This document shows positions 6,024 through 9,456 of a stretch of DNA of 9,456 bases, piece by piece. The DNA lies in the IMG/VR virus record IMGVR_UViG_2534681624_000015; one strand, written 5' to 3'. Source of the stretch: a virus. Its lineage: Duplodnaviria; Heunggongvirae; Uroviricota; Caudoviricetes. The notes under the pieces are model-generated. The model saw only the letters and a list, made by a program, of their open reading frames with translations. It did not search any database and was not told where the DNA came from. Each line of letters starts with the position of its first letter. The first letter of the stretch is position 1. A program made the translations under genes and the position numbers.

Positions 6024-6563
6024 ATGGTTGATGCAAAAATTCTGAATGGTGTCAGCATATTATTACGGGCTTACGGGCGCCTGACCTGCGGAGTTCTGGC
6101 TGAAAAAATGAATATGCTGCCCTCGTCAATGGTGTATTTCCTGCGTGATGCGGTTGATGCCGGAGTGCTCACCGAATGCAACGGATTTTATGACGTACCG
6201 CGTCCCCGTACAGAGCCGCCTGTAAGACGAAACGCAACTGAGCAGCCTGCTGTTGATGATGCGGTGTGGTGCAACTGGCGTCGCTCATTACCCTGGGTGG
6301 AAGGTAATACCATCCCTGCGCTGGCAAAAGAGTTTGCGACAGGCGTACTGACCTGTGAGTCAGTTCACATCGTTGCAGAAGTGGATGACGAGATGTGCAA
6401 ACAGGGAATGCCCCGTTTTGTGATGGCTTATATCGATATCTGGCTGGGGCGGTTTATTTGCAGTTCAGGCGCCTGGAATATCACCGACCATGTACTGCGT
6501 TATCTCATCATTGATTTTTCATCAGCACCGGGTGTGGTGCAGGAGGCTGGTTGTGAAATTTGA
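6024..6563 (+). CDS. Hypothetical early protein, N-terminal winged-helix-like segment (179 aa)
   Basis: RBS GAGGA 7 nt upstream of ATG. N-terminal LLRAYGRLTCGVLAEKMNMLPSSMVYFLRDAVDAGVLT resembles a wHTH recognition unit. Its stop overlaps the start of the next gene. Confidence 0.7.
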   Translation: MVDAKILNGVSILLRAYGRLTCGVLAEKMNMLPSSMVYFLRDAVDAGVLTECNGFYDVPRPRTEPPVRRNATEQPAVDDAVWCNWRRSLPWVEGNTIPALAKEFATGVLTCESVHIVAEVDDEMCKQGMPRFVMAYIDIWLGRFICSSGAWNITDHVLRYLIIDFSSAPGVVQEAGCEI

Positions 6564-7248
6564 AGACTGGGGTATTGATAAAAGTTGTGGCCGGGACGTC
6601 CTGGTGTACAAAAACTGTAGCGTGATTGAAGGAGAAGATGCCTGGCAGGTTCTGGATATACTTCGTTCTGCTTTATGCAGAGCTGGCTATGTTACGCCAG
6701 CGTCAGTTAATGGCGGAACTGCCACTACCTGTATCAGAAAGCAACTTTATAGTTTTTATACAGCCTACAACCAATGGTTAAAGAATGGGGCAATGGAGAC
6801 GGGCGATGATGTATTTATCCGGGCTGCCGGATTATGTGCCAATGCTTACGATTATTTTGAATCAACCGGTGCAGACAGTGAAGCCGCATTAGAACAATTA
6901 CATGCGGACTTTATCTCAGCAGGGCTGAATGCGATATTGCCATTTAACCGGGAGAGCGAACATTACATAAACGAAAGCAAATTAGCCAGATGCCACCTTA
7001 ATTCAGCACGTGTGGCATGGGTTGAAAAACACTGTATTAGTTCTGATTCAGAAATAACGGGGAAAAAGACAGTCGGTGAAACATCGTATTCGTGGCCGGG
7101 GACATTTACCACGGTGAAACAGGAATGCCCGACCTGCGGGAATGAATCCCCTGAATATCTGAAAGAGTGCCCTCATTGTGGCGGGCAGAAATGCAACCAC
7201 TGCGATATGGGCGATGACACGGCGTGCATGAATTGTGAAGGTGAGTGA
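6553..7248 (+). CDS. Hypothetical early protein with C-terminal 8-Cys double zinc-ribbon-like motif (231 aa from GTG 6553)
   Basis: ORF frame 6490..7248. I prefer GTG at 6553 because a canonical AGGAGG (6541-6546) sits 6 nt upstream and it overlaps the upstream stop by 11 nt (translational coupling); the ATG at 6490 has no RBS and would overlap 74 nt. C-terminus CPTCG-x11-CPHCG-x4-CNHC-x7-CMNC. Confidence 0.7.
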   Translation: MKFEDWGIDKSCGRDVLVYKNCSVIEGEDAWQVLDILRSALCRAGYVTPASVNGGTATTCIRKQLYSFYTAYNQWLKNGAMETGDDVFIRAAGLCANAYDYFESTGADSEAALEQLHADFISAGLNAILPFNRESEHYINESKLARCHLNSARVAWVEKHCISSDSEITGKKTVGETSYSWPGTFTTVKQECPTCGNESPEYLKECPHCGGQKCNHCDMGDDTACMNCEGE

Positions 7249-7249
7249 T

Positions 7250-7561
7250 ATGAATAATGGTGTATTTTCAAAATCAGAAGAGCTTGCCGCCCTGCTGATT
7301 GCCGGTGGTTTGCCGAAAAAAGAAGTGCATGACTTTGTGAGTTTTGTATATGAGTCGTCTCATGAAAAAGCTATTGATGAAGTCATGGCGTACCGGTTTG
7401 GCATTATTGCTGAGTCACTGAGTCCTCACTGGATTATTGAAAATCTCCGCACTATTGCTGATGGTAACAATAAAGTGGCGGCTGTCGCCGCCCTTGATGC
7501 GCTGCAACGTATGAACAGGGAACTATTCAATCCCGAGTTTCTTTTTAAGAAACGAGGTTAA
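7250..7561 (+). CDS. Hypothetical early protein (103 aa from ATG 7250; GTG 7235 alternative)
   Basis: ATG at 7250 follows the upstream stop (TGAtATG) with GGTGA 6 nt upstream. No motif recognised. Its 3' end overlaps the 3' end of a convergent minus-strand ORF by 39 bp. Confidence 0.65.
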   Translation: MNNGVFSKSEELAALLIAGGLPKKEVHDFVSFVYESSHEKAIDEVMAYRFGIIAESLSPHWIIENLRTIADGNNKVAAVAALDALQRMNRELFNPEFLFKKRG

Positions 7562-7939
7562 CCACTGTTTGCCGACGTCTGTTACGAGCGTCATCGGGGC
7601 GTCGGCAAGGTCCTGTTTTATGCGCTCAAGAATGGGTTTTTGATGTAGTGCTTTCGCAAAATCATGACCATCTTGTGTAAGTCTGACACTGGTGCCTGAA
7701 TATGAATATCCGAGGCTTGTTGGGGTGAGACCAATGCTTTTTGCGGTGCCTGTTTCCAGATATCTGTTGCTGATAAAACCATTTTCAACCAGCAACAGAA
7801 GATGGAAAACCAGCTTCTGATGGCTGTCGCTGTGCCGCTGAGAACAATCCCAGCCGACATCTTCCAGTCGAATGAATGCGGTGTCGGCCTCCAGAAAAAC
7901 ATCAAATATTCTGGCTATCTCGTCATAATCAATTTTCAT
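7523..7939 (-). CDS. Reverse-oriented hypothetical protein (138 aa), possible small winged-helix-like phage accessory protein
   Basis: Only ORF of 60 aa or more covering 7562-7801 on either strand apart from a shorter minus-strand ORF in another frame. Minus-strand ATG at 7937-7939 preceded by AAGGA at ~7-nt spacing; non-repetitive, balanced composition. Segments KLVFHLLLLVENGFI and RLTQDGHDF and the C-terminal KKKLG recall a small phage-associated domain family of unknown function (DUF2513-like, from memory, unverified). Confidence 0.55.
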   Translation of the reverse strand: MKIDYDEIARIFDVFLEADTAFIRLEDVGWDCSQRHSDSHQKLVFHLLLLVENGFISNRYLETGTAKSIGLTPTSLGYSYSGTSVRLTQDGHDFAKALHQKPILERIKQDLADAPMTLVTDVGKQWLTSFLKKKLGIE

Positions 7940-7969
7940 ATCTCATTCCTTAATATGAGAGGTGAGCAA

Positions 7970-8521
7970 ATGAATCGCACATCCCTGATTAAATTAATCC
8001 ATGTCGCCCGTCGGGAGCTACAACTCGACGACGACACTTACCGCGCTTTTCTGATGCAGAAAACGGGCAAAACCAGTTGCCGCGAGCTGACGGTCACGCA
8101 ACTGGAACAGGTGCTCGATGCCATGAAAGAACGCGGCTTTAAGAAGCTGAATAAACATCCACGTCGCCGCTTTAAGGGGTATGCCACTCCCCGCGAGAAG
8201 GTATACAAAGTCTGGCAGCAGATGGCAGAAGACGGTTTTATTACCGATGGCGGTGATGTGGCGCTGGATAAATATGTTCAGCGCCTGACAGCGAAACGCA
8301 ACGGCGGACAGGGTGTTTCCACACTGGCGTGGTGCCACGGAGAATCGTTGCAGGTTGTGCTTGAAACCCTGAAACAGTGGCACATCCGCTGTATTCGTGA
8401 AGCCTTTTCCCGTCACGGGCTTCCATTGCCGGTCAGTCCGTCCGGGCGTGAACTGCGCGGCTATGATGCCATGACGGCGGCTTATGCCCATGCCAGAAAG
8501 ACGCGGAGGATGGCACAATGA
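7970..8521 (+). CDS. gemA: GemA, early gene-expression modulation protein (183 aa)
   Basis: ATG at 7970 with GAGGTGA 7 nt upstream gives 183 aa, the size I recall for Mu GemA. N-terminus MNRTSLIKLIHVARRELQLDDDTYRAF... The stop overlaps the mor start (ATGA), as expected for the gemA-mor pair. Confidence 0.8.
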   Translation: MNRTSLIKLIHVARRELQLDDDTYRAFLMQKTGKTSCRELTVTQLEQVLDAMKERGFKKLNKHPRRRFKGYATPREKVYKVWQQMAEDGFITDGGDVALDKYVQRLTAKRNGGQGVSTLAWCHGESLQVVLETLKQWHIRCIREAFSRHGLPLPVSPSGRELRGYDAMTAAYAHARKTRRMAQ

Positions 8522-8907
8522 CGGAAGATTTATTTGGTGATTTGCAGGATGACACCATTCTGGCACATCTTGACAATCCCGCAGAGGATACGTCACGCTT
8601 TCCGGCACTGCTGGCGGAGCTGAACGATTTACTGCGCGGGGAATTGTCCCGGCTGGGTGTTGATCCTGCCCATTCACTGGAGATTGTTGTGGCTATCTGT
8701 AAGCATCTGGGCGGCGGCCAGGTCTACATTCCACGCGGTCAGGTTCTGGACTCGCTGATTCGGGATTTGCGTATCTGGAATGATTTTAACGGTCGCAACG
8801 TCAGCGAACTGACCACCCGTTATGGTGTCACTTTCAATACGGTTTACAAGGCCATTCGCCGGATGCGACGGCTGAAATACCGCCAGTACCAGCCCTCACT
8901 TCTGTAA
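8518..8907 (+). CDS. mor: Mor, activator of the middle promoter (129 aa)
   Basis: 129-aa ORF, the known length of Mu Mor, coupled to gemA via ATGA overlap. C-terminal HTH-like segment VSELTTRYGVTFNTVYKAIRR. Last gene before a strong intrinsic terminator, as in the Mu early operon. Confidence 0.9.
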   Translation: MTEDLFGDLQDDTILAHLDNPAEDTSRFPALLAELNDLLRGELSRLGVDPAHSLEIVVAICKHLGGGQVYIPRGQVLDSLIRDLRIWNDFNGRNVSELTTRYGVTFNTVYKAIRRMRRLKYRQYQPSLL

Positions 8908-8912
8908 ACAGT

Positions 8913-8937
8913 AAAGCCGGTTAATCCGGCTTTTTTT
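8913..8937 (+). terminator. Rho-independent terminator ending the early operon
   Basis: AAAGCCGG (8913-8920), loop TTAAT, CCGGCTTT (8926-8933), running into a 7-T tract (8931-8937), 6 nt after the mor stop. Corresponds in position to the Mu early terminator. Confidence 0.8.
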
Positions 8938-8984
8938 ACGTCCTCAATATCCTGTGATGAATAACCGTACCGGGGGAAATCATC

Positions 8985-9203
8985 ATGGGTAAAGGCTGGA
9001 ATGCATCCTTTCATCTTGGCAGACGTGAGCGGCTGCATCAGGAGGTTTTGCACCGTGTCGCCGGTGGGCCACGGCCTGCGCCCCGCGACTATACCGGTCA
9101 TGATGGCACCCACGGCAGTTATTACATGAAAGGCTGGCAGTCAGTTGATATGCCGGAAATTCTTCATCATTGCCTGCTTTACAGGGAGAAACATTATGTC
9201 TGA
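8985..9203 (+). CDS. Hypothetical protein (72 aa), first ORF after the early terminator
   Basis: ATG at 8985 with GGGGGA 7 nt upstream; stop overlaps the start of the next ORF (ATGTCTGA). His/Arg-rich; no motif recognised. Confidence 0.45.
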   Translation: MGKGWNASFHLGRRERLHQEVLHRVAGGPRPAPRDYTGHDGTHGSYYMKGWQSVDMPEILHHCLLYREKHYV

Positions 9204-9456
9204 GCGTTCTGCTCGTCAGTGGCCTGATTTTTTATCGGTGGTGTTACTGGCGCTGTTATTGTGGATAAGTCTGTTTTGTGGCTGGCGCGCACTGATGTTT
9301 TGCTGTGCCTCGGTTTTCAGTGTTGCTTTAAGTGTTGCCGCTGATTGTCTGGATGCGCTGATAATGAGCTGCCGGGTGCCTGAACATTTTGCCCGGTTCG
9401 TCTGGCCTCTGACCTGGCTGGGGGGTCTGTCCGGGCTGGGATTAGCCGTGATGGCA
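9196..9456 (+). CDS. Hypothetical hydrophobic/membrane protein, 5' partial (runs off the window end)
   Basis: ATG at 9196 with AGGGAG upstream; open through the window end (87 codons, no stop). Translation MSERSARQWPDFLSVVLLALLLWISLFCGWRALMFCCASVFSVALSVAADCLD... has long hydrophobic stretches consistent with transmembrane helices. Not in the ORF track, presumably because it lacks a stop. Confidence 0.5.
   Translation, partial: MSERSARQWPDFLSVVLLALLLWISLFCGWRALMFCCASVFSVALSVAADCLDALIMSCRVPEHFARFVWPLTWLGGLSGLGLAVMA

What the first reader, a model, noticed from the sequence alone, without database searches (positions are those of the whole stretch)
7523..7939. Opposite-strand gene embedded in the unidirectional early operon
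From ner to mor every supported gene is on the + strand and tightly packed or translationally coupled. Between the last semi-essential ORF and gemA, the + strand has about 400 bp with no credible ORF, while the minus strand carries a 138-aa ORF with a reasonable RBS and a wHTH-like small-domain appearance. It converges on the upstream gene with a 39-bp overlap of 3' ends and lies only 30 bp from the gemA start. Early transcription toward gemA/mor must read antisense through it. This looks like an inserted accessory gene (moron), which in phages often encodes superinfection-exclusion, defence or anti-defence functions. I find no convincing sigma70 promoter for it within the gemA 5' region, so its expression is an open question.
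Basis: partly seen in the sequence, partly recalled or inferred. Interest (0 to 1): 0.6.

Follow-up and report, generated by a model that had tools for sequence, protein, structure and literature searches.

The report
Antisense DUF2513 gene beside Mu gemA
The opposite-strand ORF is a real, conserved gene for a small winged-helix protein of unknown function (DUF2513 family) in a variable slot next to gemA, where phage Mu itself already carries an annotated opposite-strand gene, so it is an ordinary accessory gene.

Summary
A 138-aa ORF lies at 7523-7939 on the minus strand. It overlaps the upstream gene by 39 nt and starts 30 bp from gemA. It is a real gene: dN/dS is 0.09-0.2, full-length homologs reach 26-63% identity, and the AlphaFold model has pLDDT 92. 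The fold is a PadR/MarR-like winged helix plus three C-terminal helices. It belongs to PHROG 585 and the fringe of Pfam DUF2513, and RefSeq already annotates it under that name in E. coli prophages. No function is published.

It is not an anomaly. RefSeq Mu (gp15), SfMu and D108 (unannotated there) carry unrelated minus-strand ORFs in the same slot, and other relatives have none. The DUF2513 gene occupies this slot in prophages whose GemA is only 44-45% identical to the window's, so it is an old resident.

In 61 of 94 loci it converges on a homolog of the window's 108-aa upstream gene. That pair also occurs between gemA and mor and inside a baseplate operon, which suggests a mobile two-gene module. 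Relatives without the partner flank CBASS and PARIS-like defence genes.

No promoter was found, so expression and function remain inferred. Verdict: accessory gene of a known kind, modest interest.

The parts
7523..7939 (-). Protein-coding gene, 138 aa. DUF2513-family / PHROG 585 winged-helix protein: wHTH at residues ~1-88, three C-terminal helices at 89-135.
7235..7561 (+). Convergent partner gene, 108 aa, PHROG 1988, function unknown. Its last 39 nt overlap the 3' end of the DUF2513 gene. It reads in the same direction as the early operon.
   Evidence: ORF. PHROG 1988 E 1e-50. Homologs lie convergent to DUF2513 genes in 61/94 loci with offsets of -39 to +3 nt. Alignment A4. Identities of the two genes co-vary, r 0.89.
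7940..7969 (.). 30-bp divergent intergenic spacer. It holds both Shine-Dalgarno sequences (AAGGA for the minus gene at 7947-7951; GAGAGG for gemA at 7957-7962). An imperfect inverted repeat (7936-7946 / 7955-7965) spans it.
   Evidence: Sequence. Inverted repeat. The 28-nt string CACCTCTCATATTAAGGAATGAGATATG is invariant in all nine distinct E. coli-type upstream sequences listed, although the flanking genes diverge to 62% and 82%. The + strand RNA hairpin has dG -11.4, z -2.1, and includes the gemA SD.
7477..7492 (-). GC-rich hairpin (GGCGGC-GACA-GCCGCC) followed by ACTTTATTGT, 31 nt downstream of the DUF2513 stop codon. Candidate terminator with a weak T tract. It lies in the partner's conserved AAVAAL codons, so it may be a by-product of coding.
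   Evidence: Terminator-like site. The same hairpin at the same distance in the L011 and L007 alleles. Fold centroid. AAVAAL motif conserved in the partner family.
7970..8521 (+). gemA (gp16 family), the divergent neighbour that marks the right edge of the variable slot.
   Evidence: PF06252 GemA E 1.4e-31. The alignment shows that homology with Mu, SfMu and D108 resumes only at the gemA RBS and start codon.

Best explanation
Shown: 7523-7939(-) is a real accessory gene. Its product is a stand-alone acidic protein (pI about 5.9) of the DUF2513 / PHROG 585 family. The protein has a PadR/MarR-like winged-helix domain with an enlarged wing and the R-L-T-x-x-G-H motif, followed by three C-terminal helices. 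The gene sits in a hot spot immediately 5' of gemA. In Mu-like phages that hot spot is empty or filled by a minus-strand gene: either this family or the unrelated gp15-like family of Mu and D108. In phages the gene typically comes as a convergent pair with a PHROG 1988 gene (here 7235-7561). The partner reads with the host operon and the DUF2513 gene reads against it, with overlapping or abutting 3' ends. The pair is found at several genomic positions.

Inferred (most likely mechanism): the gene is transcribed on its own, independently of the early promoter Pe, from an unrecognised weak or activated promoter that must lie inside the gemA 5' coding region. It is therefore made when the surrounding lytic operon is silent, that is, in the lysogen. 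Once Pe (or a late promoter, in the baseplate placement) fires through it, convergent transcription damps its expression, and at that time the partner protein is made. The protein probably acts as a dimer through its winged-helix surface. It would bind nucleic acid or a protein target as a small regulator or exclusion-type factor that is dispensable for Mu growth.
For: Coding and family.
Fold. The R86-L87-T88-x-x-G91-H92 motif and H46 in the putative recognition helix are conserved in 76-99% of 156 family members.
Variable slot: Mu gp15, SfMu gp16, the D108 ORF and the empty slot in JCKP02. In the survey of 63 GemA-anchored loci, 19 carry DUF2513, 17 gp15-type, 4 D108-type, 2 a fourth type and 21 no minus-strand gene. 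Every gene found in the slot is on the minus strand.
Old residency: same slot in Salmonella, Citrobacter and other prophages with GemA at 44-82% identity.
Pair and mobility: 61/94 loci have the partner. Placements include between gemA and mor and between baseplate spike/hub and sheath-initiator/Baseplate_J genes. The two genes co-diverge.
Dispensability: present in only 5 of the 72 E. coli complete genomes that matched the query across this slot.
Independent transcription-unit logic: opposite orientation, its own SD, a hairpin 31 nt after the stop in three diverged alleles, and a reported promoter region abutting the slot in Mu (gem operon constitutive in lysogens, cited in PMC3820752).
Against: No sigma70-like promoter is detectable in any allele, so independent or lysogenic expression is pure inference.
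The family is overwhelmingly acidic (139/156 members with pI < 6.5). The putative recognition helix is hydrophobic with net charge -1. This is atypical for a sequence-specific DNA binder.
The hairpin after the stop coincides with the partner's conserved AAVAAL codons and has a weak T tract, so it may not be a terminator.
The partner also occurs without DUF2513 (SfMu, L046), and 33 DUF2513 loci lack the partner. The pair is therefore not obligate.
No experimental datum on any family member was found.
Confidence: 0.45

Rival explanations
1. Conflict protein acting by protein-protein contact. The acidic winged-helix protein is a prophage-encoded defence, superinfection-exclusion or anti-defence factor. 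It would bind a host or phage protein rather than DNA, and the partner might be its lytic-phase antidote or co-factor.
For: The family is acidic, like many small phage inhibitors (own knowledge). Partner-less relatives lie directly upstream of a type I CBASS operon (2TM effector E 4.5e-67, cyclase E 3e-129). Others lie divergent from an AriA-like ATPase (E 2.4e-29) in a satellite-like element, and next to a PDC-S02-like nuclease. It occupies a variable accessory slot. Opposite-strand exclusion genes are documented in a Mu-like Pseudomonas phage (PMC9936078).
Against: No PADLOC or NCBIfam model matches the protein. Only about 5 non-phage contexts were inspected and no enrichment statistics were made. 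A location beside defence operons fits a regulator equally well. No phenotype is known.
Confidence: 0.25
2. Local transcription factor of the gem operon. The protein would be a divergently encoded repressor or activator binding the invariant 28-bp spacer and inverted repeat between its own start and gemA, so controlling gemA-mor and itself.
For: The arrangement is the classical one of a regulator divergent from its target. The spacer is invariant across alleles whose coding flanks diverge and contains an inverted repeat. The fold is PadR/MarR-like. The conserved H46 and R86 are positioned like DNA-contact residues. A promoter is reported just 5' of gemA in Mu.
Against: The same gene pair works in placements with no gemA nearby, such as the baseplate operon or after Arc-like genes, and in non-phage loci. 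Salmonella alleles have a quite different 70-bp spacer. The spacer's invariance is also explained by the two ribosome-binding sites. The protein is acidic.
Confidence: 0.15
3. The act of antisense transcription is the function. Convergent transcription, or the 39-nt RNA overlap, would tune read-through of the early transcript into gemA-mor and so time the early-to-middle switch. The protein would be secondary.
For: The 3' overlap classes are conserved (-39, -30, -15 nt). All slot occupants are antisense whatever their family. The E. coli alleles lack the Mu-type hairpin upstream of gemA.
Against: Strong purifying selection on the protein and a conserved full-length fold show that the protein matters. 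No promoter has been identified. Many Mu-like phages do without any antisense gene here.
Confidence: 0.08
4. Spurious or decaying ORF: a shadow of + strand information, with no function.
For: No promoter was found. The window protein scores below the Pfam gathering threshold.
Against: dN/dS is 0.09-0.2. Homologs are full-length across genera and in non-phage loci. The structure model is confident. There is no + strand ORF in the interval.
Confidence: 0.02

Closest known systems
Pfam PF10711 (DUF2513) / PHROG 585, as annotated in RefSeq (e.g. WP_000687313.1 of E. coli SE11)
   Same: Same protein family. PHROG 585 matches full length at E 5.5e-31. 22/24 close relatives hit PF10711. The family signature residues are present. 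PGAP uses this name for the 97-99% identical gene in five complete E. coli genomes.
   Different: The window protein itself scores only 15.8 bits against PF10711, below GA 29.6, so it is a divergent fringe subfamily. The Pfam model (100 positions) does not cover the conserved C-terminal helices. No function is attached to the family.
Phage Mu gp15 (Mup15, NP_050619; PHROG 8747), with its relatives SfMu gp16 and the unannotated D108 119-aa ORF
   Same: Same slot, same minus-strand orientation, divergent from gemA, 3' end overlapping the preceding + strand gene. Also small, acidic and of unknown function.
   Different: No detectable homology: BLASTP E 0.24 and 0.06, hhalign probability 5.7%. The preceding gene is of a different family (gp14, PHROG 6075). 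A 70-bp spacer with a GC hairpin separates gp15 from gemA, against 30 bp without the hairpin here. The curated GenBank Mu record does not accept gp15 at all.
PadR / MarR-type winged-helix transcription factors (also STIV F93, TubR)
   Same: Winged-helix fold, with helices followed by a beta-hairpin wing ending in R-L-T-x-x-G. Extra C-terminal helices of the kind that mediate dimerisation in PadR and MarR proteins.
Phage morons (lambda/HK97-type accessory genes with their own promoter and terminator, expressed from the prophage; e.g. HK97 gp15, cited in PMC9936078)
   Same: Non-core gene present or absent between close relatives, inserted between conserved genes at a transcription-unit boundary, and oriented so as to be independent of the flanking operon.
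   Different: No recognisable promoter. The terminator is doubtful. It is an old syntenic resident rather than a sporadic insertion. It usually comes as a two-gene convergent pair.
Transcription factors that flank defence operons (CapW/BrxR-type wHTH-WYL regulators, CapH)
   Same: A small winged-helix gene directly upstream of a CBASS operon in marine relatives, and divergent from an AriA-like ATPase in another relative.
   Different: No WYL or other sensor domain. The family is different. This context is seen only for partner-less distant relatives (34-44% identity), not for the Mu-like allele.

Membership tests
DUF2513 (PF10711) | Score at or above Pfam's gathering threshold (29.6 bits) | tested here: not met
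   Window protein scores 15.8 bits, E 0.018.
DUF2513 (PF10711) | Transitive homology: close full-length relatives match the model, and more distant ones pass it | tested here: met
   22/24 members of alignment A1 hit PF10711 at E <= 0.1, best 3e-6. P0114, found with the A1 profile, scores 48.4 bits. Precomputed PF10711 hits exist for P0006, P0009-13 and P0021.
DUF2513 subfamily defined by the A1 profile | Family signature residues F15, F45, H46, G70, R86-L87-T88, G91-H92, F94, L98, K108, and full-length 130-145 aa stand-alone architecture | tested here: met
   All are present in the window protein. Only L12 is replaced, by F. The profile matches residues 1-136.
PHROG 585 | Significant full-length match to the PHROG profile | tested here: met
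   E 5.5e-31, residues 1-137 on profile positions 1-127 of 128.
PadR/MarR-type wHTH regulators | Winged-helix fold | tested here: met
PadR/MarR-type wHTH regulators | Sequence membership in a PadR or MarR family model | tested here: not met
   No Pfam or NCBIfam hit other than the weak DUF2513 match. No PDB sequence hit with E < 0.1.
PadR/MarR-type wHTH regulators | Dimeric, sequence-specific DNA binding | not testable with these tools
   Indirect evidence only: conserved H46 and R86 speak for it; acidic pI and a hydrophobic helix speak against it.
Mu gp15-like family (PHROG 8747 / 38610 / 32893) | Sequence homology to gp15 or to the D108 ORF | tested here: not met
   BLASTP E 0.24 and 0.062. 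hhalign probability 5.7%.
Mu gp15-like family (PHROG 8747 / 38610 / 32893) | Position and orientation: minus strand, between the last semi-essential gene and gemA | tested here: met
Moron (independent accessory transcription unit) | Presence/absence polymorphism among otherwise collinear relatives | tested here: met
   Slot empty in JCKP02 and L037. Alternative occupants in Mu, D108 and L035.
Moron (independent accessory transcription unit) | Own promoter | tested here: inconclusive
   No sigma70-like site in the window or in two diverged alleles. The scan covers only consensus-like sigma70 promoters.
Moron (independent accessory transcription unit) | Own terminator | tested here: inconclusive
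   Hairpin conserved about 30 nt after the stop, but the T tract is weak and the hairpin is encoded by the partner's conserved AAVAAL motif.
Moron (independent accessory transcription unit) | Expression from the repressed prophage | not testable with these tools
   No transcript data were found.
Known anti-phage defence systems (PADLOC-DB 2.0) | Match to any defence-protein model | tested here: not met
   0 families at E <= 1. Only the neighbours of distant relatives match.

The most novel reading that the evidence does not exclude
The DUF2513 gene and its PHROG 1988 partner form a previously undescribed mobile convergent two-gene cassette. It inserts into lytic operons of Mu-like and other myoviruses, both early and late. 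The geometry would make it a lysogeny/lysis toggle: the antisense winged-helix protein is made only while the host operon is silent and acts in phage-host or phage-phage conflict, and the sense-strand partner, made during lytic growth, neutralises it. The stretch 5' of gemA would then be a dedicated antisense accessory-gene hot spot of Mu-like phages.
Probability: 0.15. Interest if true: 0.6.

Novelty: new member of a known kind. Interest (0 to 1): 0.3.

Why it matters
As it stands, the finding mainly corrects a picture. The Mu early region is not strictly unidirectional, and the stretch just 5' of gemA is a variable slot that takes minus-strand accessory genes.

Practical points:
1. D108's occupant is unannotated, and the RefSeq and GenBank records of Mu disagree on which strand codes here. 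Annotation of this slot needs care.
2. A family of about 450 clusters of small winged-helix proteins (DUF2513) with no known function has a clear, experimentally tractable representative in E. coli prophages such as the one in strain SE11.
3. The recurrent convergent pairing with a second unknown gene, and the presence of relatives beside CBASS and PARIS-like operons, give concrete hypotheses. These could be tested with simple deletion, expression and plaque assays.

If the pair proved to be a lysogeny-specific exclusion module, it would add a new kind of prophage-encoded accessory function.

Tried and rejected
- Promoter search. Consensus scans of 7100-8400 and 7900-9456 in the window, and of the L011 and L007 alleles, found nothing upstream of the gene. 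By eye, a shared CATATTA motif before the start in the E. coli and Salmonella alleles has no acceptable -35, so I do not count it.
- Known RNA elements. Rfam at E <= 1 over 7000-8600 gave only sub-threshold eukaryotic or viral chance hits.
- PADLOC and NCBIfam for the protein and for Mu gp15 and the D108 ORF: no hits.
- PDB by sequence profile: nothing below E 0.1.
- Foldseek against PDB and BFVD: no hit with E < 0.001, only generic wHTH proteins.
- The AFDB50 library was unavailable.
- Idea that all slot occupants are remote relatives (wHTH 'L..L.ENG.I' motif): rejected for DUF2513 against gp15-like (hhalign 5.7%). However, gp15, the D108 ORF, L051 and L035 do share a core motif and a weak common PHROG.
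- Homolog searches for gp15 and the D108 ORF returned only near-identical sequences.
- Second antisense gene of L010 (134 aa) as a DUF2513 paralogue: no similarity.
- Fusion proteins in the family (P0140, P0120, P0114): no informative extra domain.
- Partner gene: no Pfam family. Only a weak, non-significant RuvA domain III-like match, E 0.05.
- The hairpin after the stop as a clean terminator: downgraded, because it coincides with the partner's conserved AAVAAL codons.
- Literature: no functional paper on DUF2513, nothing on Mup15, nothing in the SfMu paper. PMID 9454718, cited for the semi-early promoter, is not held.

Full report
**1. The observation**

The window is the left (early) end of a Mu-like prophage. 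It runs repressor c (minus strand), ner, A, B, kil-region genes, gam, gp11- and gp12-like genes, then gemA and mor.

- The ORF at 7523..7939 on the minus strand is exactly as described: ATG start, 138 aa, a 39-nt 3' overlap with the + strand gene 7235..7561, and 30 bp between its start codon and the gemA ATG at 7970.
- An AAGGA Shine-Dalgarno sequence lies 7 nt upstream of its ATG.
- The + strand has no credible ORF between 7562 and 7969.

**2. It is a real gene**

- Among 13 distinct alleles the minus-strand frame has dN/dS of 0.09-0.20.
- A word-indexed search found 29 homolog clusters, nearly all full-length, down to 30% identity, in Escherichia, Salmonella, Enterobacter, Serratia, Pantoea, Cedecea and Oceanisphaera.
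- An exhaustive profile search found 450 clusters (50% identity level) at E <= 1e-3. Almost all are stand-alone proteins of 130-145 aa that cover the whole profile.
- AlphaFold2 gives a confident model, with pLDDT 92.2 and pTM 0.83.

**3. What the protein is**

- PHROG 585 (unknown function) matches full length at E 5.5e-31.
- Pfam DUF2513 matches only weakly: 15.8 bits, below the 29.6-bit cut-off. However, 22 of 24 close relatives hit it.
- PGAP names the 97-99% identical gene 'DUF2513 domain-containing protein' in five complete E. coli genomes, including SE11.
- Three C-terminal helices (89-135) are conserved across the family. They are the likely dimerisation element by analogy with PadR and MarR; this is an inference.
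- Across 156 members the signature is F15, F45, H46, G70, R86-L87-T88, G91-H92, F94, L98 and K108. The window protein has all of these.
- The family is acidic: 139/156 members have pI < 6.5, and the window protein has pI 5.9. The putative recognition helix is hydrophobic. DNA binding is therefore plausible but not assured.
- No paper in the library ascribes a function to DUF2513.

**4. The slot**

Canonical Mu is not unidirectional here.

- RefSeq Mu annotates minus-strand gp15 (88 aa) between gp14 and gemA, and SfMu annotates the same gene as gp16. D108 has an unannotated 119-aa minus-strand ORF. E. coli JCKP02 has nothing, just 51 bp between the gp14-like gene and gemA.
- DNA alignment shows sharp replacement boundaries. 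The right-hand one is immediately 5' of the gemA ribosome-binding site.
- I surveyed 63 GemA-anchored loci:

| Occupant of the slot | Loci |
|---|---|
| DUF2513 gene | 19 |
| gp15 type | 17 |
| D108 type | 4 |
| A fourth type | 2 |
| No minus-strand gene | 21 |

- Every gene found in the slot is on the minus strand.
- gp15, the D108 ORF and two further types share a core motif and a weak common PHROG. They are unrelated to DUF2513: BLAST E 0.06-0.24, hhalign probability 5.7%.
- The DUF2513 allele occupies the same slot in prophages whose GemA is only 44-45% identical to the window's (Salmonella, Citrobacter) and in a further <50%-identity cluster. It is therefore an old resident, not a recent insertion.

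**5. A two-gene module**

- The gene that the ORF converges on (7235-7561, PHROG 1988, unknown function) is not a bystander. A locally built HMM finds its homologs convergent to the DUF2513 gene in 61 of 94 assessable loci. These comprise 25 distinct partner sequences, with discrete stop-to-stop offsets of -39, -30, -26, -15 and +2/+3 nt.
- The pair occurs at several placements:
  - 5' of gemA, in most loci.
  - Between gemA and mor, in Kluyvera and other loci.
  - Between baseplate spike/hub genes and sheath-initiator/Baseplate_J genes.
  - After Arc-like genes.
- In the early-region and baseplate placements the partner reads with the flanking operon and DUF2513 reads against it.
- Pairwise identities of the two genes co-vary, with Pearson r 0.89 overall and 0.59 among diverged pairs.
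- The association is not obligate. The partner exists without DUF2513 (SfMu, L046), and 33 DUF2513 loci lack it.

**6. Other contexts**

Partner-less relatives at 34-44% identity lie in the following places:

- Directly upstream of a type I CBASS operon (2TM effector plus cyclase), near a PDC-S19 gene and toxin-antitoxin genes.
- Divergent from an AriA-like ATPase in an AlpA/Bro-N satellite-like element.
- Beside PD-(D/E)XK and NucS/PDC-S02-like nucleases.
- In front of the packaging genes of another phage.

This is suggestive of conflict islands. It rests on a handful of loci without statistics.

**7. Expression**

- No sigma70-like promoter is found in the window or in two diverged alleles.
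- With only 30 bp to gemA, any promoter must lie inside the gemA coding sequence.
- The E. coli alleles share an invariant 28-nt spacer that holds both ribosome-binding sites and an imperfect inverted repeat.
- The Salmonella and Citrobacter alleles instead keep a 70-bp spacer with the Mu-type GC hairpin. That hairpin is terminator-like in both directions and is followed by TCTTTTTTT in the gemA direction.
- The curated Mu record places a 'semi-early promoter' at 8151-8217, just 5' of gemA. The gem operon is reported as constitutively expressed in lysogens (cited in PMC3820752). I could not read the primary paper.
- A GC hairpin about 30 nt after the DUF2513 stop is conserved in three diverged alleles. 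It is encoded by the partner's conserved AAVAAL motif and has a weak T tract, so I rate it only as a candidate terminator.

**8. Interpretation**

The identity, the fold, the accessory status, the hot spot and the pairing are shown.

The mechanism is inferred. The gene is probably a separate antisense transcription unit, made when the surrounding lytic operon is silent and damped by convergent transcription when that operon fires, at which time the partner is made. The protein probably acts as a winged-helix dimer on nucleic acid or on a protein target.

Rivals:

- A protein-binding defence, exclusion or anti-defence factor.
- A local regulator of the gem promoter.
- A purely transcriptional (antisense) role.
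- A spurious ORF, which is effectively excluded.

**9. Verdict**

The gene is a member of a known but uncharacterised family, already annotated in RefSeq, in a slot where Mu itself has an annotated opposite-strand gene. The convergent two-gene cassette and its multiple placements are the only part that seems undescribed, and its function is unknown. Interest is modest.

Noticed in passing
L002 1913-2179 (Mu NC_000929 7896-8162) versus L090 661-828 (Mu AF083977 7960-8127): The two public Mu records disagree about the slot. RefSeq annotates minus-strand gp15 (88 aa). The curated GenBank record annotates a + strand 55-aa ORF (Mu_54) and no gp15. Both frames stay open in a diverged allele (L040). 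The minus frame is more constrained (dN/dS 0.39 against 0.61) and has divergent minus-strand relatives, which favours gp15.
   Followed up: partly
L003 1912-2271 (-) (D108 NC_013594, about 7853-8212): D108 has an unannotated 119-aa minus-strand ORF in the 376-bp 'empty' gap before gemA. It matches PHROG 38610 full length. It shares a core motif, and a weak PHROG 32893 hit, with Mu gp15 and with the slot ORFs of L051 and L035.
   Followed up: partly
L002 about 2210-2229 (Mu); L007 5952-5971; absent from window 7940-7969: A GC hairpin (GGCGGTG-N6-CACCGCC) lies directly 5' of the gemA ribosome-binding site in Mu, SfMu, D108, JCKP02 and the Salmonella and Citrobacter prophages. In Salmonella it is followed by TCTTTTTTT in the gemA direction, so it looks like an intrinsic terminator for early transcripts just before gemA. 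The window's allele lacks it entirely.
   Followed up: partly
window 7936-7965: On the + strand RNA the gemA Shine-Dalgarno sequence (GAGAGG) is paired in a small hairpin with sequence complementary to the DUF2513 start region (dG -11.4, z -2.1). This could couple gemA translation to events at the divergent start.
   Followed up: no
L010 4982-5386 (+) (Salmonella Mu-like prophage): A second opposite-strand gene (134 aa; no Pfam, PHROG or BLAST similarity to DUF2513) sits between gemA and mor. The gemA neighbourhood therefore takes antisense genes on both sides.
   Followed up: partly
L012 2899-5106, L013, L014 (marine metagenome contigs): A 40%-identical DUF2513 relative lies 147 bp upstream, on the same strand, of a type I CBASS operon (2TM/Cap15 effector plus CD-NTase). 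PDC-S19, SymE toxin and an antitoxin gene are nearby.
   Followed up: partly
L091 2419-5447, L092, L093: Another relative (P0036) is divergent from an AriA-like (PARIS-type) AAA_15/AAA_21 ATPase plus a 187-aa gene. The element carries AlpA, Bro-N and HTH_36 genes, and a PAAR/DUF3289 toxin gene lies downstream.
   Followed up: partly
window 6490-7248 (+): A single 252-aa ORF joins a PHROG 6418 body to the 60-aa cysteine-rich gp13 sequence of Mu (PHROG 5584, weak DnaJ zinc-finger-like hit). In Mu, SfMu and D108, gp13 is annotated as a separate 60-aa gene.
   Followed up: no
window 7235-7561 and alignment A4: The partner family has a conserved N-terminal L-I-A-[SG]-G-[YMW] motif that weakly resembles RuvA domain III / UBA-like helices (E 0.05, not significant). 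It also has a conserved AAVAAL helix near the C-terminus. No Pfam family matches it.
   Followed up: partly
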